A stretch of 64,000 nucleotides of DNA from Vicinamibacterales bacterium (GTDB lineage Bacteria > Acidobacteriota > Vicinamibacteria > Vicinamibacterales > UBA8438), in NCBI GenBank assembly GCA_965204175.1, contig OZ241978.1, positions 4,121,330 through 4,185,329 on the forward strand. Reading direction: 5' to 3'. Below the pieces are notes generated by a model. That model was not told where the DNA came from. It saw only the letters and a list, made by a program, of their open reading frames with translations, and made no database searches. This document shows positions 18,292-39,576 of this stretch, one piece after another; positions within the stretch are counted from its first letter, which is position 1; each line of letters starts with the position of its first letter. Made by a program: the position numbers and the translations under genes.

Positions 18292-18474
18292 CTACTCGCG
18301 TTCGAAACCGTGGCTGTCGAACTTCAACGTCCGGCTGTTCTCGGTCACCGTTCTCACCACGTGATCCGGCGCGCTGGCGGGAATGTCCGCCTCAATGTCC
18401 AGCGTCACCGGCACGTTGGCCTCCACAAGAACCGCCAAGTGCGTGATCACCTCGTCGGCGATGCGATCGGCGTC
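18292..18474 (-). repeat. Duplicated 3' end of the DUF499 gene (direct repeat of 31905-32087)
   Basis: Ungapped 183 bp, 22 mismatches counted by hand (~88%); encodes DADRIADEVITHL...SHGFERE*. Confidence 0.92.
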
Positions 18475-19334
18475 ATGAGACCATAGCCGACCGCGGTCCT
18501 GGCGCCGAGGCCGAGAAGGTCCAGCCCGTTCAGGAGGTGCTTCCAGGTCCACTCGAACGCGCGCCGCCGTTTATCGGCCTCGCTGGCGTCGCAGAGCAAC
18601 CGCACCAGGAATCGCGCGCCGGCGGACACCGTGAGAAACGGTACGGGATTGGGAGAATCCCAGTCGACCGGTCCCTCGCTCCCCTGCTTCCTGGCGCTCG
18701 CATCGGAAGACTCCCGATCGACCCGGTTCCTGGCGATAGCGTCGTAATACCGTTTGTAGTGAGGCGTCAGGACGTCCACGTCGAGCGTCGGGGGTTCGAC
18801 CGGATACGCGTCCAGGAAACAGACCGCGCCGCGCTGGCGCCGGTCAGAGGGCTGATGGCGCCACGAATCCTCGCTCCCCAGCCAGCGCAGCCGTTCCTCC
18901 GCCCCCCCCTCGTCGAGGAACTGTGACGCCGCCCGGCAGAGGCCCTTCAGTGATGTCGCCGGCAAGTAGGGCACACCCGCCACGCGGTCGAACGTCAAGC
19001 CGTTCTCCAGCGGGTGATCCGCGCCGAGCCCTATGGCGAGCCGCGCTTCCGTCCGCACCGTTCGCTCCTCGATATCGGCGCCCGCAGGCGCGGCGCGCTG
19101 CCTGGCGCGGATGCGATCGAGCAACTCCCCGCCGGCGGCCACATGCTTGTTGTACTCGTTCACGAACGTGCGCAACGCCAGCTCGACAGGTTTCTGTACC
19201 GTTCGTCCGGGCGGATCCCAAAACCGGCCGTAGCGCTCGAACACTAGGCCGGCGTGCGCTCCTGCCGGCAGGGCTGTCGAACCGAACAAGCTCGCTATTG
19301 CCGACCGCTGGTTGACGGGCGGTAGATCAGCCAT
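18447..19334 (-). CDS. cmr6: Type III-B Cmr6 RAMP
   Basis: RLAIGLG..PLENGLTFD..GVPYLPATSLKG, FLDAYP, DVLTPHY, PNPVPFLTV, GLGARTAVGYG. Confidence 0.93.
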   Translation of the reverse strand: MADLPPVNQRSAIASLFGSTALPAGAHAGLVFERYGRFWDPPGRTVQKPVELALRTFVNEYNKHVAAGGELLDRIRARQRAAPAGADIEERTVRTEARLAIGLGADHPLENGLTFDRVAGVPYLPATSLKGLCRAASQFLDEGGAEERLRWLGSEDSWRHQPSDRRQRGAVCFLDAYPVEPPTLDVDVLTPHYKRYYDAIARNRVDRESSDASARKQGSEGPVDWDSPNPVPFLTVSAGARFLVRLLCDASEADKRRRAFEWTWKHLLNGLDLLGLGARTAVGYGLMTPIASPTR

Positions 19335-19779
19335 CGCTCCGCCCTGTTCGTTCGTTCCGTTCCCTGTCCTTCGAGGGCGCGGCGTCCAGCGCTGCGGCGA
19401 GGATCTTCGCTTGGTCGAGAAGCGCCACCGCCTCCGCCTGGACGGCACGGTAGCTTGCGTTGTCTGCTTCGAGACACCAGTCGAGCAGTTGGTGGTCGAC
19501 GTTCGGTTCCTGCCGATCGCGTTCCAGATCCAACAGGGACATCGTCGGGCAGTCGTCGTGCGTGAGCCACTCGATGAGGAGCGTCCGCACCGTCCTGGCG
19601 GCCGCCTCCTTCTCGTCCTTCATCATCAGCGCCAAGGTGGTCGAGAGACCCAGATTGCGCACCTGGACCGGCCGCCGCTTCAGGTCCTGGGCCAGCACCT
19701 TCTTGTCCGTGCTGGCGCTGAGCCGCTGGAAAGCGAACCGCGCCCGACGACGAGACAGGCTGGCGAGGCTAGCGGACAT
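19327..19779 (-). CDS. cmr5: Type III-B Cmr5 small subunit
   Basis: Helical 150-aa protein with RARFAF, PVQVRNLGL, YRAVQAEAVALL; lies between cmr4 and cmr6. Confidence 0.8.
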   Translation of the reverse strand: MSASLASLSRRRARFAFQRLSASTDKKVLAQDLKRRPVQVRNLGLSTTLALMMKDEKEAAARTVRTLLIEWLTHDDCPTMSLLDLERDRQEPNVDHQLLDWCLEADNASYRAVQAEAVALLDQAKILAAALDAAPSKDRERNERTGRSDG

Positions 19780-20827
19780 CGTTCAGGCCCTCCTGGGTCG
19801 CCGCATCCCAGAACGTCCACCAGCACTGGCCGGCGCCGATGGTCTCGTTGCCGCCGAGCTGGATGCGCTGCAGGTGCGCAGCGTGCGCTGTGCCCAGGTA
19901 ACCGGTCGGGGTGCGCTCGCGGTCCGGCCATGCGCGGTCCAGATCCGGCGCGCCGACGAAAGCGTAGAGCAGCGTATCCGGGGGCAGCGCTTCCTCGTAC
20001 CACAGGTTGCCGCTGTATTCGCGGTCGTTCGATTCGTCCTTCCATGTGTCGGTCGTCTTGCCCGGCGTCAACTGCGTGCGCGCCGCGACCGGCAGCGTGC
20101 GGTGCGCCAGATCGAGCAGATCCTCGTCGGGGACGACGACCAGGGCGGACGGCATCTCGTGGCGTCCCAGCGCTTCGTCAGGCGCGAGCAGCCCGACGAG
20201 CTGGTTGGCGAGCGCGCCGACCATCGCCTGCTCGACGACCTGCAAGGCGTCGTAGCAGAGATCTTCGAGCACGAGCGGCCGGCCGGCCAGACTCCGGTCG
20301 GCCACCATCGCTTGGCGTTCGCGCCCGTCTCCGCCAGCGACCCCGGCCTCGCCGTCGCCGATACCGCGCGGGTTCGGACACACCCAGTTGGCGGGTAGGA
20401 CACCCTCGACGTCGAAGGCGCGGAGCTCACGTTCCAGGCGGCGGAGCACCAGCGGGCTCGTCGCGTAGAGAAAGGGCCGCTGGAGCGAGCGCACAGGGAG
20501 CGCCAGGAGCCTAGCGTCGGTGAACAGCAGGTTGCCCGCCCTCAGCTCCGTACCCTTGTTCCCCTCTTCGCCCCGTGCTTCCGCATTGCCGTCGTCCGGC
20601 GGCCCGCCCGGTTGCGGCGGTTCCGAACCGAAGAGGTCGACGACGCGCTCCTTGGCGTATTTCTCGACCACGTCGCGCGCCACCCCCTTCAGGCCGGTAC
20701 CCGGAACGAACGGCAGCCCAGTATGCGACTCGCGCGCCACGGGGAGGTCCACCGCGCCCGCGGTCTGACCCGTGCCGCAGTGCAGGGGTGAGATCGTGTA
20801 GATGCCGTACAGCCTGACGTGCTTCAT
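19769..20827 (-). CDS. cmr4: Type III-B Cmr4 RAMP (target RNase)
   Basis: SPLHCGTG, VDLPVARE (catalytic Asp present), PGTGLKG, DARLLALPVRS, LWYEEALP, QLGGNETIGAG. Confidence 0.95.
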   Translation of the reverse strand: MKHVRLYGIYTISPLHCGTGQTAGAVDLPVARESHTGLPFVPGTGLKGVARDVVEKYAKERVVDLFGSEPPQPGGPPDDGNAEARGEEGNKGTELRAGNLLFTDARLLALPVRSLQRPFLYATSPLVLRRLERELRAFDVEGVLPANWVCPNPRGIGDGEAGVAGGDGRERQAMVADRSLAGRPLVLEDLCYDALQVVEQAMVGALANQLVGLLAPDEALGRHEMPSALVVVPDEDLLDLAHRTLPVAARTQLTPGKTTDTWKDESNDREYSGNLWYEEALPPDTLLYAFVGAPDLDRAWPDRERTPTGYLGTAHAAHLQRIQLGGNETIGAGQCWWTFWDAATQEGLNDVR

Positions 20828-20832
20828 GCCGT

Positions 20833-22146
20833 TCACTCCTGCCGGACCGCAGCAAAGGCACTTCGGCACCGGCCGCACGGTCCGATGCCGACGAACGTCC
20901 GGCCGAACCCGAACGCAGCATCCGCTTCGGCGTCCGGGTCGTTCCACGGATCGGCCAGCGGGTACCCGCCGTGCAGCGTCCGCAGGACGCGCGCGCGGTC
21001 GGCCGGCTGGCCTCCCTCGATGTCGAGGAGCCACACGCTGCCGGCCGGTACGAGCATGCGGTTCGCTCGCGAGGCGCCGGAGGCCATGCTGAACCCGCCG
21101 TGCAGCTCCGGCTGGCCAACGAAGGCCGCGCGCACGCGAACGTCGACGACGCCGCCGACCGGGATGAGCCGTGGCCGGTCCTGATCGGCGGGGAGGTAGA
21201 CCGGGCTGGCGAGAAACAACCAGACCCGTGCCTTCCCCTCGGACTCCTCGCCAGCAAGACCCGTCAGCCATTCGCCCGGACGCTCGAGTGCCTGCCAGTC
21301 CCGGCTTTTCTCGGGGGCGGGAGCGAGCTGGACCGGCCGCGCCCGGCGACCGGCGTGCGCGATTCCGCTACGCAGCCTGTCGGGTTGCAGGCCGGCGGGG
21401 ACGCGATCGACGTCGAGACTGCTCCACATACCCGACCGTTCCCGGAAGCGCAGCCGTTCCATCGTGTAAAGCATGCGGTCCCGCGCTGTGCCCGTCTTAT
21501 CGTCGATCGCCACGCCGACCTGCCGTTCCCGCCGCACGAACGGGGGCAGATCGTCGGCATGGCCGTCGGGCGACCAAGCGCCCTGCCCGGTCAGTGCCCA
21601 TCGGAGGTTGCTCGCGTCGATCCACCCCCGCATCGGCGTCGGAGCGTCCGCGTCAGGGGGCGGCCCGACGACAACGGCGTGGTTGCGGTCCTCCCACGCT
21701 GCGATTCTGTCGTCGGCGAGGTCCCAGCCCGAGTCGCTGACCCCGTCGATGAGGACCTGCGCCGGGACGGGCGGTCCGTCGGCGCGATCGGACCGCCGGA
21801 AGAGAAACCGCGGGACGGGGAACCACGCCTGCAGGCGAGGCTCGTCGTCCTCGTCCCGCTCCTCGACCGGCAGCGGAGGACCGAGCCGCCAACCGGCCGG
21901 CAGGGCAACGGGCGATCCGACCAGCGCCTCGCGCTCGCGTCGGGCGGGCGGGCTCCGGTCGGCCAAGCGGTGGTCGAGGTTCGGGCGCGCCGCCTTGAGC
22001 AGGTGCGTCCGCACGATCCCCTGGAGAGTCCATGGGCTCGGGGGAAAGGTGCTCGACGCGTGATGGGCCTCGCCGGCAAGGAGAGACCGCGGGGGGCCGA
22101 AGAAGAGCGGCTCCAGCGGACGCAGCCAGAACTCCGTACGGGGCAT
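20833..22146 (-). CDS. cmr3: Type III-B Cmr3 (Cas5-like)
   Basis: LRPLEPLFF, FPPSPWTLQG, QVGVAID, VPAGSVW, AFGFG. Confidence 0.88.
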   Translation of the reverse strand: MPRTEFWLRPLEPLFFGPPRSLLAGEAHHASSTFPPSPWTLQGIVRTHLLKAARPNLDHRLADRSPPARREREALVGSPVALPAGWRLGPPLPVEERDEDDEPRLQAWFPVPRFLFRRSDRADGPPVPAQVLIDGVSDSGWDLADDRIAAWEDRNHAVVVGPPPDADAPTPMRGWIDASNLRWALTGQGAWSPDGHADDLPPFVRRERQVGVAIDDKTGTARDRMLYTMERLRFRERSGMWSSLDVDRVPAGLQPDRLRSGIAHAGRRARPVQLAPAPEKSRDWQALERPGEWLTGLAGEESEGKARVWLFLASPVYLPADQDRPRLIPVGGVVDVRVRAAFVGQPELHGGFSMASGASRANRMLVPAGSVWLLDIEGGQPADRARVLRTLHGGYPLADPWNDPDAEADAAFGFGRTFVGIGPCGRCRSAFAAVRQE

Positions 22147-25100
22147 CAGCGATCTTCTCCCGATCCGGCCAACGCGCGACAGAAGAGCAGCCCGTCCACG
22201 GCGCGCTCCGGCGTCGGCTTGCGCCCGGTGCCGGCCGCGCCTTCGGCGTGCAGGCGGAACCCCTGCAACCACATTTCGGCTACCGCATCGCCAAGGGACC
22301 GTAACGAACCGCTTGCGAGCACGGTGGCCAGCAGACCACGGAGGAACGTTGCTGACGGAACCTGCGCCCGACCTGCCTGCGGCTGACGCCCCGGCTCCGA
22401 CTCGGCGAGCGCAAGATCGGTCAGGTCCCGCAGCCTGTACGGCAGACGGCCGGGCAGCGCGCCCCGCCGGAAACCGTCGACCACCTCGATAATCCGCTGC
22501 TGGACCGCCGCCGGGCCGCCGCCAGTACACCAGGGCATCGCGAACTCGCTCTTCGCCCCGCCCCGCGCGAAGTGTCCGACCGCCACCGCGCCGCCGCCGC
22601 ACCGACGCTTGGCGACCTCGTCGAGCAGATGCCGCGCGTGGTCGATCAACAGGCGCAGGTCGGTCTTGAAGTGCGCATAGGCGATACCGGCCGAGAGGCT
22701 CTGATTGCGACCGAGCATCGGGTAGAAGCGCCCTTGGAGGGCGTCCACCGCGCCGGGTTCGCCGACGCCGGACGCGTCCGATTGCACGTTCGGATCGCAG
22801 TGGGGTTCGATCCAACGGATCGGCCACGCGATATGCTCCTCGCCGAGGGCCTTCATCGGTACGACGAAGCGCCGCCGCGCCTCCGACTGCAGCACCAGGG
22901 CGCTACCGACCGGCGGTGCCCAGTCGTGCCTCCGCCACGACCACGGTTGCTCGCGGGGCCGGGTATCGACGACCCAGGGCGCGCTGAAGAGTTGTTGCAG
23001 CCGGGCGGCCAGCCGTAGCGCGTCCGCGCCCGGGGCGATGGCCAGCACATCGTCGCCGCCAGCGTAGACGAGTCGCCCGCCGTACTCGCGCTCGACCACC
23101 CAGGGGACGATGGTGTTGGCAAAGACCGCCAGCGCGCGGGTGATGAACGCGTGCACAGACGGTCCCATGTGGCGCTTCAGGCCGAGCAGCCGCGGCCAGC
23201 CCGCGTCGATGGCCCACCGGAGTCCTCCGCCCGGCTCCGCCTTTTGCAGCTGGCTGGTGACATTCGGGTGGAGGACGTCGGCCCACGCAGCACCGATGCG
23301 CTGGGGATCGCCCAGGATGAGACGACCGAGCAGGTCGGCGTCCAGAACCACCACGGCGACCCGCGGATCGGGCGGCCGCCCATCGTGGGCCTTGCAGAAG
23401 GCCTTGTGGAGTTCGCCTGCTGCGCTGCGGACCCGCTCCAGCTTGGTCTTTTGTCGTGCGCGTTTCGCTGCCTCCCCGGCGCCGCCGGCCGAAGTGGTCG
23501 CCCTCAGGCGGCGAATCTCGGCGTCGAGGGTATGTGGCATCCCGTACTGCGCGTCGTAATTCAGCAGATCGGGGTTGGATCCCGGACTTCGAACCGCTAG
23601 CGCAAGGCGCGCCAGGGCGCGCGGAAAATTCGTCCGGTCGAGGTCCGTGGCGTCGAGTGCCGCGAGTAGGTCCGCGCCCTTGCGTGATTCGACCGCCCAA
23701 GCGAAGTACTCTTGCAAGGCCACCACCGATGTGCTCGGAAACGGCACGCGCAGCTTGCCGGCGTCCGTTTCTTCCCTCCAGTTCTGTCCGAACAGAACCG
23801 GCCCGAGCCCGGCTTCGTCGTCGTCGTTCGCATTGCTCGACGCGACGACCAGGAACCGCTTGACGGAGCAGATCGCGCAGAGTCGCTCCGCTCCGGTCTC
23901 GTCCGGATCGAGGTCGCGGGACCGCCAGAACTTCCGCGCCTCCGCACGCGTCCTGTCAATGTCCTGTTCATCCGGTCGATGAGAGAGCGCCTGCCTCTGG
24001 CCGCAAGTCGTGCACTTCTCGCCAGGTTCGGGATGGCTGATCCAGTTCCGGCTCTGGTTGCGCAGCCGGTGCCTAGTGCGCAGGACGTGATGGACGATAG
24101 GGTAGTCGAAGCCTCGTTCGTCCTGGAGGTACTTCACATTTACAGCGCCGAACACCTCGCGCGCCTGCTCGTAGTGTCCGGCAATCCTGGCTGACAACCA
24201 CGGCGCAACGCGCGCGCGGCGGCGCGCGATGCGATCCTGATCGGCATCAACCCGATCGCTCGACGGGTGCGGCGCCTGCGCAGGCAACGACTCCCGGCGG
24301 CGCAGACTCTCGGCCTCATTGACCCTTTCTCCCAAGTCGTGCGGACGATCCCACTTCACGGCGGACCAAGCGAGTTGCGGACCCTGCGCGATCTGCCGCT
24401 CCCACTGTGCCCTCCACACCGCCGGATCCGGTGGCTCCTCCCCGCGGCGGCCGGTCTCCATCATCCAACGTTCGACTAGGCTGCACAGCCCGCGCCATCG
24501 GGCGTCCATGGACTCGCGGCTCTCCTCGGCCATCACCCGCAGATGCCGCAGGTGCGAGTCGCCGGGCGCGCCGCGTTCCGGTCCCTGCGGCGCGAGGACG
24601 ACGAACGTATCTGGAATCAGCGCCGCCTGGGTGCAGGGGTCGGTAACGGCGGCGGGCAAGGCGTTCTCGCGATGCCGGCGCATCCAGGCGTCTATGCGGG
24701 CGTTGCCGCGCAGGTCCGGGTAGAGAATGCAATCGGGCCCGTAGCGCTTGATGAACGGCGTCATCGCGGCGAACGCCAGCTCCGAAATGAGGAACGACGA
24801 CATCCAGAGGTCGCGGAACGTGCGGCTCTCACGAATGAACGCCTGGACCGGCGCCACGCTCACGGACAGCAGCCAGGGATGCCGGGCGCCATCCTGGAAG
24901 CCGAGAAACGCCAGCGCGCTGGTCACGCGGAGGTGCTCCCAGATGGAATGGTCCGGACAGCGCGAGTCGGCGGGCAGCAGATCCCAGAGCGGGGTGCCGA
25001 ACCGCGATCCTTCCGGCATCGATAGGTTGTCGCGCCACGCACGCCACGTCCACCAGAACGTTCGTTCGAGCGCGTCCGCACCAGCAAACCGAGCCGGTGG

Positions 25101-25517
25101 CGCTTCGTTGTCGGGAGAGTCGAGCGCCTCCAGTGCTTTCAGCTCGGCCGCAACCTGCCCCTCCGTCACCTCGTGCGGTTTCGCCTCCGCAGCGTCCGGC
25201 ACGGGAAGCTGTACGGGGACGTCGCCCATCAACGGATGGGTCACGAGGGGGCGTTTGGTGAAGTCGCACTTGAGCACGCTGCCCCTGGCGCCCCGCGGCT
25301 GGTTCAGGACCGGTCTGTCTGCGCCGCTGGCCGCGAAGTCGGCAGGCTTGTAGTACCACTGCCCTATCGGTTCGTCGAGTATCCGTTCGATCAGCTCGAC
25401 CAGCGTCCTGGCCGCCTTCCGGTGTCCGCCCGTACCCGCCTTCAGCACGAATGGCTTGTGGGGTGGATCGTGCAGGGCTAGGCGTAGCTTGGCCTCCCAG
25501 AATGCCTTGGTGTTCAC
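22146..25517 (-). CDS. cas10: Type III-B Cas10/Cmr2
   Basis: LHDPPHK, DSRCPDHSIWEH, PVQAFIRESRTFRDLW, EKCTTCG / LCAICSVKR zinc site, intact LVYAGGDD, SAGIAYAH. Confidence 0.95.
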   Translation of the reverse strand: MNTKAFWEAKLRLALHDPPHKPFVLKAGTGGHRKAARTLVELIERILDEPIGQWYYKPADFAASGADRPVLNQPRGARGSVLKCDFTKRPLVTHPLMGDVPVQLPVPDAAEAKPHEVTEGQVAAELKALEALDSPDNEAPPARFAGADALERTFWWTWRAWRDNLSMPEGSRFGTPLWDLLPADSRCPDHSIWEHLRVTSALAFLGFQDGARHPWLLSVSVAPVQAFIRESRTFRDLWMSSFLISELAFAAMTPFIKRYGPDCILYPDLRGNARIDAWMRRHRENALPAAVTDPCTQAALIPDTFVVLAPQGPERGAPGDSHLRHLRVMAEESRESMDARWRGLCSLVERWMMETGRRGEEPPDPAVWRAQWERQIAQGPQLAWSAVKWDRPHDLGERVNEAESLRRRESLPAQAPHPSSDRVDADQDRIARRRARVAPWLSARIAGHYEQAREVFGAVNVKYLQDERGFDYPIVHHVLRTRHRLRNQSRNWISHPEPGEKCTTCGQRQALSHRPDEQDIDRTRAEARKFWRSRDLDPDETGAERLCAICSVKRFLVVASSNANDDDEAGLGPVLFGQNWREETDAGKLRVPFPSTSVVALQEYFAWAVESRKGADLLAALDATDLDRTNFPRALARLALAVRSPGSNPDLLNYDAQYGMPHTLDAEIRRLRATTSAGGAGEAAKRARQKTKLERVRSAAGELHKAFCKAHDGRPPDPRVAVVVLDADLLGRLILGDPQRIGAAWADVLHPNVTSQLQKAEPGGGLRWAIDAGWPRLLGLKRHMGPSVHAFITRALAVFANTIVPWVVEREYGGRLVYAGGDDVLAIAPGADALRLAARLQQLFSAPWVVDTRPREQPWSWRRHDWAPPVGSALVLQSEARRRFVVPMKALGEEHIAWPIRWIEPHCDPNVQSDASGVGEPGAVDALQGRFYPMLGRNQSLSAGIAYAHFKTDLRLLIDHARHLLDEVAKRRCGGGAVAVGHFARGGAKSEFAMPWCTGGGPAAVQQRIIEVVDGFRRGALPGRLPYRLRDLTDLALAESEPGRQPQAGRAQVPSATFLRGLLATVLASGSLRSLGDAVAEMWLQGFRLHAEGAAGTGRKPTPERAVDGLLFCRALAGSGEDR

Positions 25518-26725
25518 GGCGCGCTCCAGCGGCGCTCAACGGCGTCCATAAAGTCGTCGATGGCTAGGTTCGACGGCGGAGCAAGTGGTCGCCCGCCCCG
25601 GCCGGCGAGCACGGCGGACGTGCTGCCGGACCCCGCCGCCGGCACCGGGCCGTCGAGACGGAAGCACGCGGGGTGCAGCCGGTTCCCGATGCGCAGAACG
25701 CGGACGAAGAGGGGGCTCGCGTGACGGTCGCTCGTGTACCCGCCGGCCCGCGTCCCGCGAACCGCCTGGAACTGGGCGCTCCTACGCACGCCCTGGAACC
25801 GGAACGTGATCGGGAGGCCGAACGATGCCCGCTCGGGAGCACGCAGCGGTCGCTGGCCGGCCAGCGACGCCTTGACGTCGGCGTAGTCCGGCGGGCGGCG
25901 GATCCGGAAGTCCTGGAGCGCGCGCCCCACTTCGTTCAGGGCGTCGGCCCAAGCGTGCGGACGGTTCGCGGGGAATCCCCCCTGATGCAGCGCGAAGCGG
26001 AATGTCGACGACGCCGAACCCTGGCCGACGTGCGGGTTCAGCCGCGGCGCGGGCCGGGCCTCTCCCGCCTTCTTCCCGTCGTCCGGCGGCCACCCGGGCC
26101 AGCGGTCCGATTGCAGCGTCTTCAGCGCGCGGTCCAAGGCCGAGCGCCCTTCGGCCGCATCCTGGCAACCGGACAGCAACGGCAGATCCGCAGTCTCCGG
26201 CCACGCATCCTGCGGCCCCCACCGCTCGAGCGTGAAGCTGCCGAACCCGCGCCGGCTCCGACTCCCGGCGCCGCCGAGGTGCATGAGCAGCCACAGGCTG
26301 CCGAGCAGTGCGCGCCGGTACTCCGCTCCCGGTATATGCCTCGGGTGGATGAGCCGCATGGTGAACTCGGCCGGCGGCGCGATCGCCTTCCGCTTCGGGA
26401 CATCCATGTTGGCCAGGTAGCGGATGCCGTTCTTCGTCCCGCGTCCACGCCCTTCGTCGAACCGATTGACCAGCGCGCGGTCCCATGACCAGGACCGTAG
26501 TTGCCCGTTCGCGTCCACGCGCAGGAGAAAGGAGGACTGCCCGTGGTTCACCCCGGTACCGCCGAACACCGCCGGTTCGTGGCGAAGGAAATCCGCATCG
26601 AAGGCGCGGTACCAGAACCGGAGAAGCCCCTTGAAGCTGGATGCGCGCAGCTCTGGCACTCTCGGGTCGGCGCCGGCGAGATAGACCGGCGTCACTGCTC
26701 GCACGGTCAGCTCAAGCTTCCCCAT
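25514..26725 (-). CDS. cmr1: Type III-B Cmr1 RAMP
   Basis: VTPVYLAGA, ELRASSFKGLLRFWYRA, GGAGSRSRRGFG, FGLPI, RHASPL. Confidence 0.93.
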   Translation of the reverse strand: MGKLELTVRAVTPVYLAGADPRVPELRASSFKGLLRFWYRAFDADFLRHEPAVFGGTGVNHGQSSFLLRVDANGQLRSWSWDRALVNRFDEGRGRGTKNGIRYLANMDVPKRKAIAPPAEFTMRLIHPRHIPGAEYRRALLGSLWLLMHLGGAGSRSRRGFGSFTLERWGPQDAWPETADLPLLSGCQDAAEGRSALDRALKTLQSDRWPGWPPDDGKKAGEARPAPRLNPHVGQGSASSTFRFALHQGGFPANRPHAWADALNEVGRALQDFRIRRPPDYADVKASLAGQRPLRAPERASFGLPITFRFQGVRRSAQFQAVRGTRAGGYTSDRHASPLFVRVLRIGNRLHPACFRLDGPVPAAGSGSTSAVLAGRGGRPLAPPSNLAIDDFMDAVERRWSAP

Positions 26726-29687
26726 CCACGGTCTCCGTGAGCTGGTCCTGCAGCCACTTTCGAAAGTCCTCCCGCTCGCCGTGCCCGTCGTCCGGCGCCT
26801 GGTCGCTCCCCGGCGCGTCCAGCGCAGGCTGCGGATCGACGTCGTATATCTGGAAGGCCGGCCCCGTTCCCTTCCGCCACCCCGTGAAACGGTACAGCAG
26901 CATGCGGTGGCCTGCTACCGGCGGCAGCACATCGAGCAGCCGATTGGAGAGATCCTCATGATGGCTGGACAGGAACACTTGGCGTGCCGAGGCTGACGCC
27001 TCGCCGTCCCCGTAAGCCATCTGGCGCCAGAAGATCGTATCGCGGGACAGATTCGCCAGGTCGTAGGTTGCCGACAGATCGTCCATGAGGAACACGCGGT
27101 GCCCCAACTGCGGCTCCAGCAGCCGGTTCTCGGCTATCACCAGCGCCACACCCACCTGCGTGCGTTGTCCGAACGACAGCACGCGCCGTTCGCGACCGTC
27201 GTCGGTCCGTATCGTGAAGCTCCGGCGGCGACCGGATGCGTTCGCGCCGCCCTCCTCGGACTCGTCAGCCTGCAGGGCGACGCGCAACGGGCTGCCCACC
27301 GGCGCGAGCCGCGAGAGGACCCCGTTGGCGAGCCCCTCAACCTCCTTGCGGAGCGGGTCGGACACCCGGGCCGCGCCCTCGATGCCCGCGATGATCCGGT
27401 CCACGCTCGCGGCCAGAACCGCGAGCGGTTCAAGCTTATCCTGCGCCTGAGCGGCCAGCTCCTTGCGCCGGCGTGTCTCTCGCACCTCCTGCCAAGCGTC
27501 CCGCAACGCGGCGGCTGCGTCCCGCAGATCAGCACGCATCGCCATCAACGTCCCGGCGCGCTCGGAGTTGCGAGCCCGTCGCAGTTCGACCTCCAACGCA
27601 TTGCGGCGCGCTCGCCGGTGGTCGCGCTCCTCCAGGGCCGCCCGGCGAAGGTGGAGATAACCGCGGAGTTCCTCGGCGCACTTGGCTGCATCTTCTGGAA
27701 GAACGCGCCGAAGTTCCGCGGTGAGCATGGCGAGTGACGCAGGCCGCGCTTCCGCGGCTGCGCGCCAAGCAGGAACGTGGCCGCAGAGCGCCTCCAGAAT
27801 TGCGGCCAGATCCGGCTCACCCTCGTCCGCATCGAACGCCTTCACGTCCTCGTCGAGCTGCGGGTAGCGGTCGTCGATCGCGGCCAGTTCGTTCTTGCAC
27901 TCCTCGATCTCCGCCTCGATCTTCTCCAACGTCTTGCGCGCCGCCTCTCCCGCGGGCGGCGAACGCCGGAGCTCCTCGTGGCGCAACGCCTCGAGAACGT
28001 CGGGCAAACTGCGAGGCAGCTTCTCGGCGGGTGCCGATTCACCCCGCATAGCCAGCAACTGATGGACAAAATCGGACAGCATGCCCTCGTCACCGGACTT
28101 CGGAAACGACGGCCAGCGGTCCGGCTCCGCGAGCACGGCGTACTGCCCGGCAAGCTCACGGTAGTGGGGTTGGAGCGGCTCCAACGCAACGTCGAGCTGC
28201 CGCTGCGGCATCACGAGGTTAGGCTCCATCGCCTCCTCCCGGATTCGACGGTTGCAGTTGGACAAGTGCTTCTTGGCTGCCCTGACGCCATCGAGGAGCT
28301 CGCTGACGACAGGGTGGAGCGGGTCCAGCCAGTCGCGCAATGTGGTGCCGGTGGTCGTTTCGTCGAACAGTTCGTCGAGCCGATCCGGATACACCGCCGT
28401 CCGGCGGGACAGCAACTCCTCCGTGCGGTGGACGGTGTCGCTCGAGAGCGGCTGTTCTCCAAACCGCTGCTGGAACTCCCGCGTCAGCGGGCGAACCACG
28501 GCCGCGCCGGTTTCGCCGTTCACGGACCACGTAATCTCTGGCGGCTTCCAACCGTGGTCGTCGCGCTCGCGGCGACCGGCGCAGGTCACGGTCACGGTCC
28601 GAGGTTGAGACGCGGGGTCGGTGGGCTCGACTCGCAGTGCGCCCGCCAACTCGAAAGTGTCCCCGTCGCCGTGGAACAGGTGCTGCGGATCGCCGCGGAA
28701 GTGGTGGTAGCCCGTGAGCAGCAGATCGAGCGCCTCGATTAGGGTCGTCTTGCCGAGTCCATTGGGACCGGCCAGCAGAACGAGGTCGGCATCGAGATCG
28801 ATCTCGAACGGCTCGCCCTGCTGCGATCCGAAGCCGCGGAAGTTCCGGATTCGGAGCTTCCGGATCCGCGCGATGGTCCCCGGATGTGCAATCGTCCGGG
28901 AGTACGTTTCGGCGGCGATGCTATCGTCGTCGCCCGGACTGGGTCCAGGGCTGTTCCACGGAAGGCGCGCGTCGATTGTGCGCAGCTTCGCGTTCAGCCA
29001 CTCGACGAAACGGCGCACGAGCGGATTCTCGTGCGCGTCGCCCGAATAGTCGGACTCGACCACCGCCTGCATCTCGTCGAACAATCCGCACAGTTCGTCT
29101 TTTCCGGCGTGCTCCCTCGCGGCCGCGAGGACTTCGGACGCCTTCCGCGGCTCCGGGGACTCGGTCCGGCTCCACGCATCTGGCGCTGGCGCCAGCAGGT
29201 CGAGACATCGCCGGCAGTACTCCTGGTGGTCCGTTTCCACGAACAGCAGGAACTCGCCGCGGTGCCAGTCCTGGTCGCCCCCCCAGTCGCGGACCACCTG
29301 CACCCAGGGAGGCTCGTCGTTGCCGGAGTCGGAACGAGCGTGATCGCCCGTGTGGGAACACGTGTCAAGGAGCACGATCCCCACCACCGGCCGCAACAGT
29401 CCGTACTCGGCGGCCAGTTGAGCGACGAAGCGGAGGAGCGTTCGCAACTCCTCCTTGCAGGTCCCGCGCGCCTGCGTCGGCGTCAACGCCGACGGTCGCC
29501 GGGGCCGCACCGTGACGCACAACGCCGCCACGGACAGGTGAACGCGGGTGACGCCCCAGTCGAGACACCAGACCGGGTACCACGGGTCCGTACTGGTTGC
29601 GCGGTCATTCGCGTCGTCCTCGGGCTTCCGCAGAACGAGTCCCAGGTCGAAGTCATCGAGCCGGTCGGCGAGGTCTGCGGCCATCAC
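26712..29687 (-). CDS. SMC/Rad50-like coiled-coil ABC ATPase with a ~260-aa N-terminal extra domain
   Basis: IRNFRGF, GPNGLGKTT (Walker A), long helical middle, LSFGQ signature, FLMDD (Walker B), LSSHH (H-loop). Confidence 0.85.
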   Translation of the reverse strand: MMAADLADRLDDFDLGLVLRKPEDDANDRATSTDPWYPVWCLDWGVTRVHLSVAALCVTVRPRRPSALTPTQARGTCKEELRTLLRFVAQLAAEYGLLRPVVGIVLLDTCSHTGDHARSDSGNDEPPWVQVVRDWGGDQDWHRGEFLLFVETDHQEYCRRCLDLLAPAPDAWSRTESPEPRKASEVLAAAREHAGKDELCGLFDEMQAVVESDYSGDAHENPLVRRFVEWLNAKLRTIDARLPWNSPGPSPGDDDSIAAETYSRTIAHPGTIARIRKLRIRNFRGFGSQQGEPFEIDLDADLVLLAGPNGLGKTTLIEALDLLLTGYHHFRGDPQHLFHGDGDTFELAGALRVEPTDPASQPRTVTVTCAGRRERDDHGWKPPEITWSVNGETGAAVVRPLTREFQQRFGEQPLSSDTVHRTEELLSRRTAVYPDRLDELFDETTTGTTLRDWLDPLHPVVSELLDGVRAAKKHLSNCNRRIREEAMEPNLVMPQRQLDVALEPLQPHYRELAGQYAVLAEPDRWPSFPKSGDEGMLSDFVHQLLAMRGESAPAEKLPRSLPDVLEALRHEELRRSPPAGEAARKTLEKIEAEIEECKNELAAIDDRYPQLDEDVKAFDADEGEPDLAAILEALCGHVPAWRAAAEARPASLAMLTAELRRVLPEDAAKCAEELRGYLHLRRAALEERDHRRARRNALEVELRRARNSERAGTLMAMRADLRDAAAALRDAWQEVRETRRRKELAAQAQDKLEPLAVLAASVDRIIAGIEGAARVSDPLRKEVEGLANGVLSRLAPVGSPLRVALQADESEEGGANASGRRRSFTIRTDDGRERRVLSFGQRTQVGVALVIAENRLLEPQLGHRVFLMDDLSATYDLANLSRDTIFWRQMAYGDGEASASARQVFLSSHHEDLSNRLLDVLPPVAGHRMLLYRFTGWRKGTGPAFQIYDVDPQPALDAPGSDQAPDDGHGEREDFRKWLQDQLTETVDGEA

Positions 29688-31900
29688 GTTCTCGCGCCGC
29701 CGTACGTCGCGCGCAGGGTGAGCCGTGCGCGGGTGCGCGGCAGGAGCCGCGCCGCAGTGCAGCGTATTGCCCGCACCGTCCTGGCCACCGCCCGCCGCCC
29801 GTCGCGGTTCGCTTGTCCACTGGCGGGCAGGTCGACTTCAAGGGCGGGGAGCCGAACAAACCTGCCCGTGCGCAGTCGACGCGGCCGGTTCTCTGCATCA
29901 AGGCCGGCCCGCTCCCGTTCCCAGCGCCCTACGCGCACGCTCCCCTCGGCGAGGCGGCTCGTCACCGCGAGCTGATAGCAGAGGGTGGTCCGCGGGTCCA
30001 CGTCGTCCTCGGAGACGCATCGCGGCGGATTCGGAGCCCCCTGCTCCACGAGCATCATGTCGAATGGTGCGGGCACGCCTGCCGTTTCCGTGTGGGTCCT
30101 CACGCGCACGTTCAGTCCCACGCCACCAGGGTCCGGCCAGACGCGGGGCTCGCGATCGGCGTGGACTCTCTCTCCCGCTCCTCGGCCGTTGCTTTGGGTC
30201 GCGCTCGGGCCGGAGTCAACGTCGTCGTTCGACAGGCCCGGAACGAGCGCCATTAGCACGTACAGGCTCGAGAGCACCAGCAATGACGCGTCACGCAGCG
30301 GCAGATACCAGTCGTATCCTCGACAATCGCCCGCCGGCGCGCACGGGTTCCGGCCCCGGATGGCCTCGATCCACGTCCAGAGCCGCAACGGACCGGCCCC
30401 GATGTCGGCGTAAGGCCAGTCGCCCGACCTCTTCGGAAGCGCAACTGGGCGGAAGAGCGCGACGAAGCGACCGAACGCGCCCTCGGACGGTGCGGAGCAC
30501 ACGTTCCCGGAGCCGACGGAACGCGGGTACAGCCAGCGCCGCAGGCGCATCGCTTCCCGGGCGGGCGCAGTCCCGCGCAATGCCAGCCAGGCGGAGAACG
30601 GGAACGGCGGCCCACTGTAGCGCTCGACCAGCCCGCGCAGGGCCACGAGGTAGACCCCGAACCAGAAGCGGTCAGCGTCGAGACCGCCGCCGGTCATCCG
30701 GCCGATTCCCGCGCCGTCGGAGTCCGGCCGAGTGGACATCAGTCTCGGGTCGGGAAACCGGTCGGCATGGAGCGCCGTGACGACCTGCTTCAGTCCCACC
30801 CGCAAGCCGGATATCTCATCCGTGTAGTACGAGCGGAGGAGCTGGTACTGATGAAACGTGGGCGACTCCTCGTACACGTGTACGAACGGCGCGTGCGACT
30901 CCCTGCGCGCCTCGGTCGGAAACGCCTGAAACTCGCTCGCGAGCGCCAGCACGGCGTGTCGGATCTGCGGCTCCGCACTGCCGAAACCGGAGAACAGCAA
31001 CGTGCGGCTGCGGGCGCGATCGCGAAACAGGTCCGCCGCCCAGTGGTTGTCCCGAAACCCCTGAAGCTGGCGGTCCGTCAGCGCGATACGGTCCGCTTCG
31101 GCAACCGCGTCGCGCTCGTAGGCCGCAGCACAGCCGTTGATCTTATACAGACGCAACACCGGGCGCCGCCGCCCGCGTCCGCGCCGCCGGCACGCGCCCC
31201 AGCGCCGGTACTCGTCGATCTGCCGGATCACGCGGCACGGGCCACCGTCGCCGTCGTCAAGCTGGTCGAGCCGCGCCGCCAGCCGCGGGCCGAACGAGCG
31301 CGCCAACGCCTGTTCGATGCACGTATCCCAGTTGGTTGTCACAATCTCGTCGATGACACCCTCCCGGCACAGATACGCCAAGTAGCGGTGGGCCGGCCGC
31401 GGGACGAGCGTCGTGAAGCGCTCGATCCGCAGCACCCTGCAGACGGACTGCGGATCGCTGAGCCACGTACAGACTTCGGCCAGCCTGTCGAGCGACGCGT
31501 TGCCGTGGGACAGTTTCTTGTCGTCAGACAGTTTCTCGACGAAGTCGCCTTCCGTTGAGCAGTGGAGATTCGGAACGTGGAGGAGCCTTGCGGCCCGCTT
31601 CGCCGTGTCCGGACTCGACTTGCACCGTGCCCACAACCAGTTCGCCAACGACCGCTTCAGACTGCCCGTCCGCGGGCTGAACTCCGACGGATCCGGGCGC
31701 TCCGGCTCGCAGCCGACGCGATGCCCGGACTCGCAGGTGCGGGCGGGCGGCGAACCGTCACCTGACGGCGCTTTGCACTCATTGCTGGTTCCGGCGCCGA
31801 GAAACGGGACGAGGGCGCCGTCGAGCAGGCGCGTCAGGATCGCGTCGAGATAACGATCGACCTGCGCCTGAGTCCCCGTTGGCTCACCCAGATGACTCAC
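29684..31900 (-). CDS. SIR2-like domain protein with an unrecognised C-terminal half
   Basis: VPFLGAGTS, AHRYLA, VTTNWDTCIE, LYKINGC, LLFSGFG. Confidence 0.82.
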   Translation of the reverse strand: MSHLGEPTGTQAQVDRYLDAILTRLLDGALVPFLGAGTSNECKAPSGDGSPPARTCESGHRVGCEPERPDPSEFSPRTGSLKRSLANWLWARCKSSPDTAKRAARLLHVPNLHCSTEGDFVEKLSDDKKLSHGNASLDRLAEVCTWLSDPQSVCRVLRIERFTTLVPRPAHRYLAYLCREGVIDEIVTTNWDTCIEQALARSFGPRLAARLDQLDDGDGGPCRVIRQIDEYRRWGACRRRGRGRRRPVLRLYKINGCAAAYERDAVAEADRIALTDRQLQGFRDNHWAADLFRDRARSRTLLFSGFGSAEPQIRHAVLALASEFQAFPTEARRESHAPFVHVYEESPTFHQYQLLRSYYTDEISGLRVGLKQVVTALHADRFPDPRLMSTRPDSDGAGIGRMTGGGLDADRFWFGVYLVALRGLVERYSGPPFPFSAWLALRGTAPAREAMRLRRWLYPRSVGSGNVCSAPSEGAFGRFVALFRPVALPKRSGDWPYADIGAGPLRLWTWIEAIRGRNPCAPAGDCRGYDWYLPLRDASLLVLSSLYVLMALVPGLSNDDVDSGPSATQSNGRGAGERVHADREPRVWPDPGGVGLNVRVRTHTETAGVPAPFDMMLVEQGAPNPPRCVSEDDVDPRTTLCYQLAVTSRLAEGSVRVGRWERERAGLDAENRPRRLRTGRFVRLPALEVDLPASGQANRDGRRAVARTVRAIRCTAARLLPRTRARLTLRATYGGART

Positions 31901-31904
31901 GGTC

Positions 31905-35279
<3,375 letters not shown>

Positions 35280-35997: not shown

Positions 35998-39576
<3,579 letters not shown>

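What the first reader, a model, noticed from the sequence alone, without database searches (positions are those of the whole stretch)
18447..31900. Type III-B Cmr operon coupled to a SIR2-like protein and an SMC/Rad50-like ATPase, with no CARF effector
Seen: SIR2-like (738 aa), SMC-like ABC ATPase (991 aa), cmr1, cas10, cmr3, cmr4, cmr5 and cmr6 form one minus-strand chain with overlapping or abutting codons (29684/29687, 26712/26725, 25514/25517, 22146). Cas10 keeps GGDD and Cmr4 keeps its catalytic Asp. I recognise no Csm6/Csx1/Can/NucC/CorA/SAVED gene in the window. Known: type III Cas10 makes cyclic oligoadenylate or SAM-AMP for a partner effector, and effector+SMC pairs define Lamassu/ABC three-component systems, whose effectors include SIR2. 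Inference: this may be a hybrid system in which the SIR2/SMC pair is the Cmr output, or a co-expressed guard module. I know no description of this combination.
Basis: partly seen in the sequence, partly recalled or inferred. Interest (0 to 1): 0.88.

Follow-up and report, generated by a model that had tools for sequence, protein, structure and literature searches.

The report
Cmr CRISPR operon with Lamassu-like module
A type III-B CRISPR (Cmr) operon carries, where such operons usually keep a signal-activated helper protein, a three-part SIR2 / adaptor / SMC-like ATPase module of the Lamassu kind, and the two have been inherited together in very distant bacteria, which suggests a CRISPR output arm not described so far.

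Summary
Window 18447-31900 (minus strand) is one tight chain: SIR2-like gene, SMC/Rad50-like ABC ATPase, cmr1, cas10, cmr3, cmr4, cmr5, cmr6.

- The first ~270 residues of the "SMC" protein are a fused middle component that is a separate ~215-290 aa gene elsewhere. The module therefore has the three-part Lamassu layout.
- The SIR2 family has Asn where the catalytic His should be.
- Hma defence genes flank the operon, and type I-G cas genes lie 11 kb away.

In the SIR2 tree one clade of 25 rows holds all 9 Cmr-linked rows and no Cmr-free one. Its sister clade of 30 rows holds 8 Cmr-free loci, several beside restriction-modification genes. The same layout is on Azospirillum lipoferum 4B plasmid AZO_p2. 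SIR2, SMC, Cmr1 and Cas10 co-diverge. One Cas10 inside this Cas10 clade has a CHAT-SAVED protein at the same slot instead. I found no CARF or SAVED in the genome with the families tested.

Best reading (0.45): the module is the ancillary effector arm of this Cmr lineage. How it is triggered is not visible in sequence. I found no description in the searched papers.

The parts
29684..31900 (-). SIR2-like effector gene (738 aa, LmuA-like layout). SIR2_2 domain at residues ~20-360, then a ~370-aa C-terminal domain with no known family. Motifs: VPFLGAG, TTNWD (N190, D192), and 'YKINGC' with Asn255 at the catalytic-His column.
   Evidence: All 41 members of alignment A1 match PF13289 and no other Pfam family.
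28878..29687 (-). Middle-component domain (about residues 1-270 of the 991-aa protein), here fused to the ATPase. It is a separate ~215-290 aa gene in most relatives. Conserved motif GDQDWHRGxF.
   Evidence: No Pfam or PDB sequence match. The boundary is approximate.
26712..28877 (-). SMC/Rad50-like ABC ATPase part (LmuB-like). Walker A GPNGLGKT, a ~450-aa insert that I take to be a coiled coil, signature LSFGQ, Walker B ending in DD, and SHHED. No CxxC hook.
25514..26725 (-). cmr1 (403 aa)
   Evidence: TIGR01894 above its cut-off.
22146..25517 (-). cas10/cmr2 (1123 aa). N-terminal HD dyad (H16, D17) and DHSIWEH, two Cys pairs (CTTCG, CAICS), palm-1 LDAD, GGDD.
   Evidence: It is the only Cas10 in the genome.
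20833..22146 (-). cmr3 (437 aa)
19769..20827 (-). cmr4 (352 aa; ATG at 20827), with 'AVDLPV'
19327..19779 (-). cmr5 (150 aa)
18447..19334 (-). cmr6 (295 aa; ATG at 19334)
31905..35279 (-). Context, not part of the conserved unit: hmaC (DUF499 ATPase) with an extra N-terminal HEPN_Swt1 domain. It ends 4 nt before the SIR2 start.
   Evidence: PADLOC HmaC 1100 bits over residues 165-1122. Not found next to the module in any other locus.
35998..39645 (-). Context: hmaA (SNF2 helicase with a NOV_C domain)
   Evidence: PADLOC HmaA 1680 bits.
13693..16662 (+). Context: hmaB (DUF1156 adenine methyltransferase), convergent with the operon
   Evidence: PADLOC HmaB 1536 bits.
1994..7133 (.). Likely supplier of crRNA processing and adaptation in trans: type I-G (formerly I-U) cas genes. 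Cas_GSU0054 at 1994-3514 (-), Cas_GSU0053 at 3514-4785 (-), Cas4-Cas1 fusion at 5424-7133 (+). No array follows them here.
   Evidence: An 87%-identical copy of window 5362-7462 lies at genome 1086106-1088210, next to the array of about 97 repeats.

Best explanation
This is a distinct lineage of type III-B (Cmr) CRISPR-Cas interference operons. The place usually taken by a CARF or SAVED ancillary effector, directly upstream of cmr1, is filled by a Lamassu-like three-part module:
- a SIR2-family effector with a long C-terminal docking domain (LmuA-like);
- a ~250-aa middle component (LmuC-like in position, here fused to the ATPase);
- a Rad50/SMC-like ABC ATPase (LmuB-like).

Proposed working, with each step marked as shown or inferred:
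1. crRNAs come in trans from the genome's two arrays, whose repeats end in ATTGAAGC. The arrays and their repeat ends are shown. That this ending serves as the Cmr 5' tag, and that the type I-G genes process the RNA, is inferred.
2. The Cmr complex binds a matching transcript. Cmr4 cuts it, and the Cas10 HD and cyclase sites switch on. The motifs are shown intact. The activities are inferred from what is known of the family.
3. Activated Cmr then releases or activates the SIR2 effector from its SMC/middle scaffold, giving an abortive-infection or growth-arrest arm. This step is inferred.

I favour the Cas10 nucleotide product, or direct contact with the complex, as the trigger. The chemistry of the SIR2 domain is open, because its catalytic His is replaced by Asn.
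For: 1. Conserved synteny over deep divergence. SIR2, middle, SMC, cmr1, cas10, cmr3 and cmr4 lie in this order on one strand in L001 (an Acidobacteria MAG), L006, L008, L009, L011 and L012/L014 (identical records). L039 has cmr1 and then its contig ends. The fully annotated Azospirillum lipoferum 4B plasmid has SIR2, a hypothetical gene, an AAA ATPase, cmr1, cas10, cmr3, cmr4, cmr5 and cmr6, next to cas6, cas2, cas1 and a CRISPR array. Protein identity to the window outside L001 is only 29-37% for SIR2, 25-32% for SMC and 38-42% for Cas10.

2. In L011 the module lies between cas6 and cmr1. L026 has an RT-Cas6-Cas1 fusion and an array just upstream.

3. SIR2 tree of 59 rows. One clade of 25 rows (SH-aLRT 94) holds all 9 Cmr-linked rows, 16 rows whose contigs are too short to tell, and no Cmr-free row. 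Four of those 16 (L015, L020, L026, L036) have CRISPR arrays. The sister clade of 30 rows holds 8 Cmr-free rows and no Cmr-linked row.

4. Co-divergence. Pairwise-identity matrices over 8 linked loci correlate at r = 0.93 for SMC against Cas10 and r = 0.81 for SIR2 against Cas10. The known partners Cmr1 and Cas10 give r = 0.86. All three values are with the close pair member L001 removed.

5. Slot swap. The Cas10 of G345 (43% identical) nests inside the module-linked Cas10 clade, which has support 100; it is sister to L011 with support 95. Directly upstream of its cmr1 it has a 773-aa protein with a SAVED domain and a weaker CHAT match, and no SIR2 or SMC. The SAVED evidence is PDB Cap4 E 1.9e-25 and PF18145 E 3.5e-27. 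A SAVED-Cas10 fusion (P0105, 37% identical) belongs to the same Cas10 subfamily. This Cas10 lineage therefore signals to SAVED-type receptors elsewhere.

6. The Cas10 cyclase motif is kept. GGDD is present in 7 of 8 linked Cas10 proteins (GGDE in L014), and the palm-1 D-x-D and the HD motifs in all 8.

7. I found no other receptor. PF09651, PF09455, PF09659, PF09670 and PF18145 gave no hit in the 99.5%-complete genome. PF18145 also gave none in G401 or on the Azospirillum plasmid, while the positive control G345 was detected.
Against: - No CARF, SAVED or other nucleotide-sensor similarity was found in SIR2, the middle component or SMC.
- The Cmr-linked proteins have no extra domain and almost no discriminating residues compared with the stand-alone clade. 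The only differences are an 8-11 column segment and five SMC columns.
- Cas10 has no large lineage-specific insertion.
- The stand-alone sister clade shows that the module is a complete, autonomous system without Cmr.
- Co-inheritance within one operon produces co-divergence by itself, so point 4 does not prove an interaction.
- L021, which I left out of the tree because its SIR2 is split into two ORFs, has a broken SIR2, a 392-aa ORF and only a 180-aa fragment matching the SMC profile. No cmr gene was detected in the ~9 kb that follow.
- For three of the five families (PF09651, PF09659, PF18145) the control genomes gave no hit either, so those negatives are weak. NucC, CorA and Can/Card1 were not searched.
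- The His-to-Asn change means the expected NADase output may not exist.
Confidence: 0.45

Rival explanations
1. Independent passenger. The SIR2/middle/SMC genes are an autonomous Lamassu-like anti-phage system that was captured once by a Cmr operon and has since travelled and been transcribed with it. It senses invader DNA by itself, and Cmr neither activates nor needs it. The benefit is only joint transfer and joint expression.
For: - The sister clade is stand-alone and sits among restriction-modification or other defence genes: inside a type I R-M operon in L041, next to methylase and helicase genes in L055 and L028, and beside an ABC-3C CTD6 gene in L066.
- ATPase motifs are invariant in both clades.
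- No clade-specific domain or residue set exists.
- No sensor domain was found.
- In the window the operon itself sits inside another defence system (Hma), as is usual for defence islands.
Against: - Defence-island neighbours normally shuffle. Here order, strand and abutting codons persist down to ~30% protein identity in at least 9 distinct loci from different phyla.
- The module lies between cas6 and cmr1 in L011.
- No Cmr-free member of the linked clade was seen (0 of 25 rows).
- A bona fide signal-sensing effector occupies the same slot in a nested Cas10 lineage.
- The cyclase motif is retained with no other receptor found.
Confidence: 0.3
2. DNA-damage relay. The coupling is functional but indirect. 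The activated Cas10 HD nuclease nicks the transcribed invader DNA. The resulting DNA ends are what the Rad50/SMC-like sensor recognises, as published for Lamassu. This releases the SIR2 effector. No nucleotide signal or protein contact is needed.
For: - HD-type motifs (HDPP and DH..W.H) are intact in all 8 linked Cas10 proteins.
[quoted passage not shown] I read the abstract, outline and section 5 of 10.1101/2025.04.02.646746.
- This reading explains why the linked module needs no new domain.
Against: - Any Lamassu-like system anywhere in the genome could do this, so it does not explain the strict operon linkage or the slot swap with CHAT-SAVED.
- It leaves the conserved GGDD without a user.
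- That these motifs form an active HD nuclease is my recall, not a test.
Confidence: 0.2

Closest known systems
Lamassu / ABC-3C systems with a Sir2 effector (LmuA-LmuC-LmuB, 'long' type)
   Same: - Gene order is effector, small middle gene, then SMC-like ATPase.
- The effector has an N-terminal enzymatic domain plus a long C-terminal domain.
- The ATPase is ~700-775 aa, with Walker A Gx4GK[ST] and a Walker B ending in DD, as reported for long LmuB. Sir2 is a listed Lamassu effector.
Sources; papers read (passages; section 5).
   Different: - No CxxC zinc hook in 21 of 22 ATPases, whereas long LmuB is reported always to have one.
- The SIR2 protein matches no PADLOC LmuA model at E <= 0.001.
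- The middle component matches no Pfam family, ABC-3C middle-component families included, and no PDB chain.
- LmuB models match mainly the Walker A head, and the MADS3 model matches as many members.
- The catalytic His of SIR2 is Asn.
- One clade is built into Cmr operons.
Type III-B (Cmr) CRISPR-Cas with CARF or SAVED ancillary effectors (for example SAVED-CHAT, Csx1/Csm6)
   Same: A full cmr1, cas10, cmr3, cmr4, cmr5, cmr6 set with GGDD and HD motifs. The accessory genes are co-oriented and abut the interference genes. A nested relative carries a protein with a SAVED domain and a weak CHAT match at the same position.
   Different: The accessory module has no CARF or SAVED domain. It has three parts and includes an ATP-driven SMC-like protein. 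Its closest relatives work without any CRISPR system.
Cas_RecF and DUF499 ATPase accessory genes of type III modules (Shah et al. 2018, PMC6546367)
   Same: SMC/RecF-type ABC ATPases and DUF499 ATPases were listed there as non-CARF genes enriched next to type III cassettes (passages read). In the window a DUF499 gene also abuts the operon.
   Different: Cas_RecF is ~330 aa, crenarchaeal and paired with small unknown proteins. SIR2 is not mentioned in that paper's main text. Here the ATPase is ~720 aa with a long insert and is paired with SIR2. The DUF499 gene here belongs to a complete Hma system and is not conserved next to the module elsewhere.
SIR2 NADase defence effectors (ThsA, DSR, SIR2-HerA, KomC)
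   Same: SIR2_2 fold family, a GAG dinucleotide-binding motif and a TTNYD-type Asn/Asp motif.
   Different: The His of the 'K-x-H-G' strand is Asn in all 41 aligned members, and Ala in L047. Distant outgroup members keep His. A PDB title, 'KomC(H146N), a SIR2-domain NADase', shows that this exact substitution has been engineered. That it inactivates the enzyme is my inference.

Membership tests
Type III-B CRISPR-Cas (Cmr) interference module | Cas10/Cmr2 large subunit with Cmr2_N and palm domains | tested here: met
   PF12469 E 1.3e-26, PF22335 E 4.6e-18, TIGR02577 at 143 bits against a cut-off of 79.4.
Type III-B CRISPR-Cas (Cmr) interference module | Cmr1, Cmr3, Cmr4, Cmr5 and Cmr6 subunits in one operon | tested here: met
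   Cmr3 passes Pfam (107 bits against 21) but is below the NCBIfam cut-off (69.6 against 100.4).
Type III-B CRISPR-Cas (Cmr) interference module | Cyclase GGDD motif and HD nuclease motifs in Cas10 | tested here: met
   GGDD at 820-823; HD at 16-17; DHSIWEH at 189-195. These are conserved in the 16 Cas10 proteins compared, with GGDE in L014. The assignment of the N-terminal motifs to an HD nuclease is recalled.
Type III-B CRISPR-Cas (Cmr) interference module | CRISPR array and Cas6-type processing available | tested here: inconclusive
   There is no array in the window. The genome has two arrays (about 97 and 6 repeats) whose repeats end in ATTGAAGC. Arrays beside relatives end in ATTGAAAC or ATTGAGAC. 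PF10040 Cas6 was not found in the genome. Processing by the type I-G genes is inferred.
Lamassu (LmuA/LmuB/LmuC) | LmuB: SMC/Rad50-like ABC ATPase with Walker A, a long insert, a signature motif and Walker B | tested here: met
   G37, N39, G40, G42, K43, S568, G570, Q571, D599, D600, H639, H640 and E641 are invariant in 22 sequences. The best PDB matches are SMC1 and Rad50 heads. PADLOC LmuB models match 21 of 22 members, best E 3.9e-25.
Lamassu (LmuA/LmuB/LmuC) | CxxC zinc hook, reported in all long LmuB | tested here: not met
   None in 21 of 22 ATPases. L016 has CPVC, but next to the signature motif and not in the middle of the insert. The criterion is from section 5 of 10.1101/2025.04.02.646746.
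Lamassu (LmuA/LmuB/LmuC) | LmuC: small gene between effector and ATPase | tested here: inconclusive
   A ~215-290 aa gene, or a fused domain, sits at that position in most loci. The family has 290 representatives. No sequence match to any Pfam family or PDB chain was found. A fold comparison was not possible because structure prediction was off.
Lamassu (LmuA/LmuB/LmuC) | LmuA: N-terminal effector domain plus a C-terminal domain, recognised by LmuA models | tested here: inconclusive
   The layout fits: SIR2_2 at the N-terminus and ~370 aa with no family behind it. No PADLOC LmuA model matched at E <= 0.001. DefenseFinder models were not available.
SIR2 NAD+ hydrolase effectors | Catalytic His in the K-x-H-G strand, together with the Asn of TTNYD | tested here: not met
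   Asn190 and Asp192 are present, but the His column reads Asn255 in 41 of 41 members. The outgroup members L072, L073 and L074 read KIHGC or KVHGC in the same column.
cOA-activated CARF/SAVED effectors | A CARF or SAVED sensor domain | tested here: not met
   There are no such Pfam hits in the three module proteins or their 41, 25 and 22 relatives. hhalign against the G345 CHAT-SAVED protein gave probabilities below 1%.
Hma system (flanking genes only) | HmaA helicase, HmaB methylase and HmaC ATPase | tested here: met
   PADLOC full-length matches of 1680, 1536 and 1100 bits.

The most novel reading that the evidence does not exclude
The Cas10 product, a cyclic oligoadenylate or another conjugate, or the activated Cmr complex itself directly gates a Rad50/SMC-like ATPase scaffold that holds a non-canonical (His-to-Asn) SIR2 enzyme. 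That would be the first type III ancillary effector without a CARF or SAVED sensor, the first Lamassu-type system switched by an RNA-guided signal instead of by DNA, and a SIR2 domain with chemistry other than His-dependent NAD+ hydrolysis.
Probability: 0.3. Interest if true: 0.9.

Novelty: new variant of a known kind. Interest (0 to 1): 0.74.

Why it matters
Type III CRISPR systems are understood to reach their helper proteins through CARF or SAVED sensors of Cas10-made nucleotides. Lamassu systems are understood to be autonomous sensors of foreign DNA. Here the two are joined in one operon that has stayed together from Acidobacteriota to an Azospirillum plasmid.

If the coupling is functional, there are two possibilities. 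Either a new kind of receptor for type III signals exists, or RNA-guided recognition is relayed through DNA damage to an SMC-type sensor. In both cases the result bears on many type III loci that have a conserved cyclase but no known effector. One published survey reports 133 such loci among HD-lacking Cas10 alone (PMC11229360, passages read). That survey examined only HD-lacking Cas10 for new effectors, which may be why this lineage was not flagged.

The locus is present in a cultured, non-pathogenic bacterium, Azospirillum lipoferum 4B, so the question can be tested directly. The stand-alone sister clade is itself a sizeable family (at least 239 middle-component clusters at E <= 1e-10). Its SIR2 protein matched no PADLOC LmuA model in my scan.

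Tried and rejected
- **Complex prediction** on the SIR2 C-terminal domain (residues 365-738, alignment A1) against the middle component (A2) returned 'no answer' with a score of 0.00. This is no evidence either way.
- **ESM Atlas.** The two window fragments are not held and the reading machine was closed. The stored homologue P0026 gave only SIR2_2 clusters.
- **RNA evidence.** No RNA holder was listed for window 24000-33000. Laying four contig-only runs showed no transcript information.
- **Promoter and terminator scan** of 18000-37900 found no more sites than shuffled sequence gives.
- **tRNA and Rfam scans** of the window found nothing.
- **Rosetta-stone search.** The middle-component profile was run against 1.84 billion representatives. 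All 7 long hits among the 150 listed are middle-SMC fusions, and none is fused to a Cas protein.
- **CHAT proteins near the module** in Azospirillum and L015 share only the CHAT region with the G345 CHAT-SAVED protein and match no PDB chain. I do not count them as cOA sensors.
- **Clade-specific features** in SIR2, middle component, SMC and Cas10 were sought, and nothing substantial was found.
- **Considered and rejected: HmaC (HEPN-DUF499) as part of the conserved unit.** My HmaC profile hit no locus other than the window's own.
- **Considered and rejected: the module as a generic island neighbour.** This is contradicted.
- **Papers.**
  - Krishnan et al. 2020 (ABC-3C) is not held, so I could not check whether it mentions a CRISPR link.
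  - Supplements of Shah 2018, Shmakov 2018 and Hoikkala 2024 are closed. They may list SIR2 or ABC ATPase neighbours that the main texts do not mention.
- **Not searched in the genome:** NucC, CorA and Can/Card1 families.

Full report
**1. What is in the window**

The genome is a single 6.76-Mb contig with 69% G+C, and the window is positions 4121330-4185329. On the minus strand of the window lies an unbroken chain of genes. Family searches and start-codon inspection define them as follows:
- SIR2_2-domain protein, 29684-31900, 738 aa
- SMC/RecF/Rad50-like ABC ATPase, 26712-29687, 991 aa
- cmr1, 25514-26725
- cas10/cmr2, 22146-25517
- cmr3, 20833-22146
- cmr4, 19769-20827
- cmr5, 19327-19779
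- cmr6, 18447-19334

Neighbouring genes overlap by 1-14 nt or are 5 nt apart. Cas10 carries an N-terminal HD dyad, DHSIWEH, two Cys pairs, a palm-1 D-x-D and GGDD.

**2. Surroundings**

The chain continues upstream. A DUF499 ATPase gene with an extra N-terminal HEPN_Swt1 domain ends 4 nt before the SIR2 start, and an SNF2 helicase gene precedes it. A DUF1156 methyltransferase gene lies convergent on the other side. PADLOC names these three HmaC, HmaA and HmaB with full-length scores of 1100-1680 bits. A PtuA/HEC-04-like ATPase gene (16697-18364, plus strand) lies between hmaB and cmr6.

Further left are an integrase gene (10228-11862) and a second DUF1156 gene (7320-10106), of which a 1.5-kb stretch is 82% identical in DNA to hmaB. 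Beyond these lie type I-G (formerly I-U) cas genes: Cas_GSU0054, Cas_GSU0053 and a Cas4-Cas1 fusion.

The window holds no CRISPR array. The genome has two:
- About 97 repeats at 1088382-1095540. This array lies beside an 87%-identical copy of the window's stretch 5362-7462, which carries the cas4-cas1 gene.
- Six repeats at 3549990-3550400.

Both repeats end in ATTGAAGC. Arrays next to related operons end in ATTGAAAC or ATTGAGAC. That this ending is the 8-nt crRNA tag used by Cmr complexes is my recall. The window's Cas10 is the only one in the genome.

**3. The 'SMC' protein is two components**

Homologues of the SIR2 protein were collected in three ways:
- 44 proteins at E <= 0.001 in the large protein search.
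- 1 locus in genome contigs.
- 72 loci in metagenome contigs, confirmed out of 302 stretches that matched a pattern.

Local profiles found an SMC-like gene downstream of SIR2 in 52 of the 75 loci then held. In most of these a separate ~215-290 aa gene lies between SIR2 and a ~700-775 aa ATPase. The N-terminal ~270 residues of the window's 991-aa protein align with that gene, sharing the motif GDQDWHRGxF.

A profile of this middle component finds 290 representatives at E <= 0.001 among 1.84 billion proteins. Of the 150 listed, 7 are long, and all 7 are middle-ATPase fusions.

The layout is that of type II Lamassu, also called ABC-3C: effector, then small gene, then SMC-like ATPase. Published Lamassu effectors include Sir2 (passages; section 5 of 10.1101/2025.04.02.646746).

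**4. How far Lamassu membership goes**

The ATPase fits in these respects:
- Walker A is invariant.
- The signature motif is S-x-G-Q.
- Walker B ends in DD, as reported for 'long' LmuB.
- The best PDB matches are SMC1 and Rad50 heads.
- PADLOC LmuB models match 21 of 22 members.

Other features do not fit or cannot be judged:
- 21 of 22 ATPases lack the CxxC zinc hook that long LmuB is reported always to have.
- The SIR2 protein matches no PADLOC LmuA model.
- The middle component matches no Pfam family and no PDB chain.

I therefore call the module Lamassu-like and do not file it as a member.

**5. The SIR2 domain is unusual**

All 41 aligned family members keep the GAG motif and the TTNYD-type Asn and Asp. 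They read 'YKINGC', with invariant Asn255, in the strand where SIR2 enzymes carry the catalytic His. When the most distant module-linked relatives (L072, L073, L074) are aligned, they read KIHGC or KVHGC in exactly that column, and L047 reads Ala.

The family shows many other invariant residues, so the domain is under constraint. A His-dependent NADase should nevertheless not be assumed.

**6. Is the link to Cmr more than neighbourhood?**

*Synteny.* Cmr genes follow the ATPase directly in L001, L006, L008, L009, L011, L012/L014 (identical records) and L039, whose contig ends after cmr1. The annotated plasmid AZO_p2 of Azospirillum lipoferum 4B has the full set: SIR2 family protein, hypothetical protein (217 aa), AAA family ATPase, cmr1, cas10, cmr3, cmr4, cmr5, cmr6. 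It also carries cas6, cas2, cas1 and a six-repeat array upstream. In L011 cas6 directly precedes SIR2.

*SIR2 tree.* A quick IQ-TREE run on 59 rows (the careful search did not finish) splits the core family in two.
- The first clade has 25 rows (SH-aLRT 94). It holds all 9 Cmr-linked rows, 16 rows whose contigs are too short to tell, and no Cmr-free row.
- The second clade has 30 rows (SH-aLRT 87). It holds 8 Cmr-free rows, 22 undetermined rows and no Cmr-linked row.

Four of the 16 undetermined rows of the first clade carry CRISPR arrays, and L026 also has an RT-Cas6-Cas1 fusion. Cmr-free loci of the second clade lie inside or beside restriction-modification genes or another ABC-3C system.

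*Rows left out of the tree.* These were SIR2 ORFs under 450 aa, among them L031 and L021, and the window's own duplicate L002. L031 has an array. L021 has a broken SIR2, only a fragment matching the SMC profile, and no cmr gene nearby.

*Co-divergence.* Across 8 linked loci the pairwise identities of SIR2, SMC, Cmr1 and Cas10 are strongly correlated. With L001 removed, SMC against Cas10 gives r = 0.93, compared with 0.86 for the known partners Cmr1 and Cas10. This shows inheritance as one unit. It does not prove contact.

**7. The Cas10 lineage and the slot swap**

Cas10 relatives fall into a sharply separated subfamily. There are 62 clusters with at least 32% identity, at least 87% coverage and at least 346 bits; the next hit has 214 bits. 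Among plasmids only the Azospirillum Cas10 is a full-length relative, and cyanobacterial III-B Cas10 proteins match at about 25% over the first third.

In 401 genomes sampled from the window's phylum, 2 have a SIR2 relative and 15 have a Cas10 match. The best match is G345, at 43% identity. Its contig shows cmr1 and cas10 preceded not by SIR2 or SMC but by a 773-aa protein. That protein has a SAVED domain (Cap4 E 1.9e-25; PF18145 E 3.5e-27) and a weak CHAT match.

In a Cas10 tree of 17 rows, G345 nests inside the module-linked clade, which has support 100. It is sister to L011 with support 95. One cluster of the subfamily (P0105) is a SAVED-Cas10 fusion.

So the position upstream of cmr1 is an exchangeable effector slot in this lineage, and the lineage signals to SAVED receptors elsewhere.

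**8. Other receptors in the genome**

PF09651, PF09455, PF09659, PF09670 and PF18145 gave no hit in the 99.5%-complete genome. For PF18145 the positive control G345 was detected in the same call in which G000 and G401 (the genome of L001) were negative. The Azospirillum plasmid was also negative. For PF09651 and PF09659 no control genome gave a hit, so those negatives are weak. NucC, CorA and Can/Card1 were not searched.

**9. What argues against a direct link**

- No sensor domain is detectable.
- The Cmr-linked SIR2, middle and SMC proteins have no extra domain and almost no discriminating residues against the stand-alone clade.
- Cas10 has no large lineage-specific insertion.
- The stand-alone clade shows that the module can work without Cmr.

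**10. Verdict**

My probabilities are:
- 0.45: the module is the ancillary effector arm of this Cmr lineage, triggered by activated Cas10 through its nucleotide product or by contact.
- 0.30: an autonomous Lamassu-like passenger.
- 0.20: an indirect relay in which DNA ends made by the HD nuclease are sensed by the SMC-like ATPase.
- The remaining 0.05 is for readings I have not thought of.

**11. Novelty**

I found no description of a SIR2/SMC or Lamassu module in type III operons. The searches were:
- Searches of the held library.
- The main text of the Shmakov 2018 preprint.
- Shah 2018, which lists Cas_RecF and DUF499 ATPases but not SIR2.
- Hoikkala 2024, which looked for new effectors only in loci whose Cas10 lacks an HD domain.

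Supplements were closed, and the ABC-3C paper of Krishnan et al. 2020 is not held. Earlier mention there cannot be excluded. I rate the finding a new variant of known kinds. It is of clear interest to type III and Lamassu specialists, and it can be tested in a cultured Azospirillum strain.

Noticed in passing
window 1994-7462: Type I-G (formerly I-U) cas genes (Cas_GSU0054, Cas_GSU0053, Cas4-Cas1 fusion) with no CRISPR array after them. An 87%-identical copy of 5362-7462 lies at genome 1086106-1088210, directly before the array of about 97 repeats. In the window the homology stops at 7462, where a DUF1156 gene and an integrase gene begin. The island may therefore have replaced or displaced an array.
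   Followed up: partly
window 7320-11862: A second DUF1156 methyltransferase gene (928-aa ORF, minus strand), of which a 1.5-kb stretch is 82% identical in DNA to hmaB. A tyrosine integrase gene (10228-11862) lies next to it. This looks like a duplication or recombination scar at the edge of the defence island.
   Followed up: no
window 13693-16662 and 31905-39645: A complete Hma system (HmaA, HmaB, HmaC) is split into two convergent halves by about 15 kb that hold the Cmr/SIR2/SMC operon and a PtuA/HEC-04-like ATPase gene (16697-18364). HmaC carries an extra N-terminal HEPN_Swt1 domain (residues 11-124) outside the span of the PADLOC HmaC model.
   Followed up: partly
L081 (NC_016586.1) 2522-11089; L015 6096-9826; L020: Several module-linked loci also carry a large CHAT-domain protein. 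Azospirillum has one of 869 aa, plus a TIGR03986 RAMP gene. L015 has one of 738 aa next to a metallophosphatase gene, and L020 has ORFs of matching size and order (739 and 530 aa) that I did not scan. No SAVED region was detected in the Azospirillum or L015 protein.
   Followed up: partly
P0105 (protein): A 1484-aa protein of the same Cas10 subfamily. Its precomputed Pfam list includes SAVED, and its Cas10 part spans residues 293-1429. It is an apparent SAVED-Cas10 fusion, or a gene-calling read-through.
   Followed up: partly
window 18409-31961: A sponge-metagenome run (coded X5) holds one 13.7-kb contig about 91% identical over the whole cmr6-to-SIR2 operon. Separate short contigs match hmaC. 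The Hma genes match many more contigs in all four runs than the operon does.
   Followed up: no
window 40001-42000, and 40503-60062 more widely: There is a strong AT-skew dip (-0.27) at 40-42 kb and a 21-nt tandem repeat at 40494-40542. Six long ORFs have no Pfam match: 40503-41933, 41542-42717, 43123-44967, 49517-53653, 55405-57738 and 57735-60062.
   Followed up: no
genome 4093437-4093725 and 3305437-3305557 (outside the window): My crude repeat finder flagged periodic repeats here that are not CRISPR arrays. They look like coding repeats with periods of about 72 and 30-60 nt.
   Followed up: no
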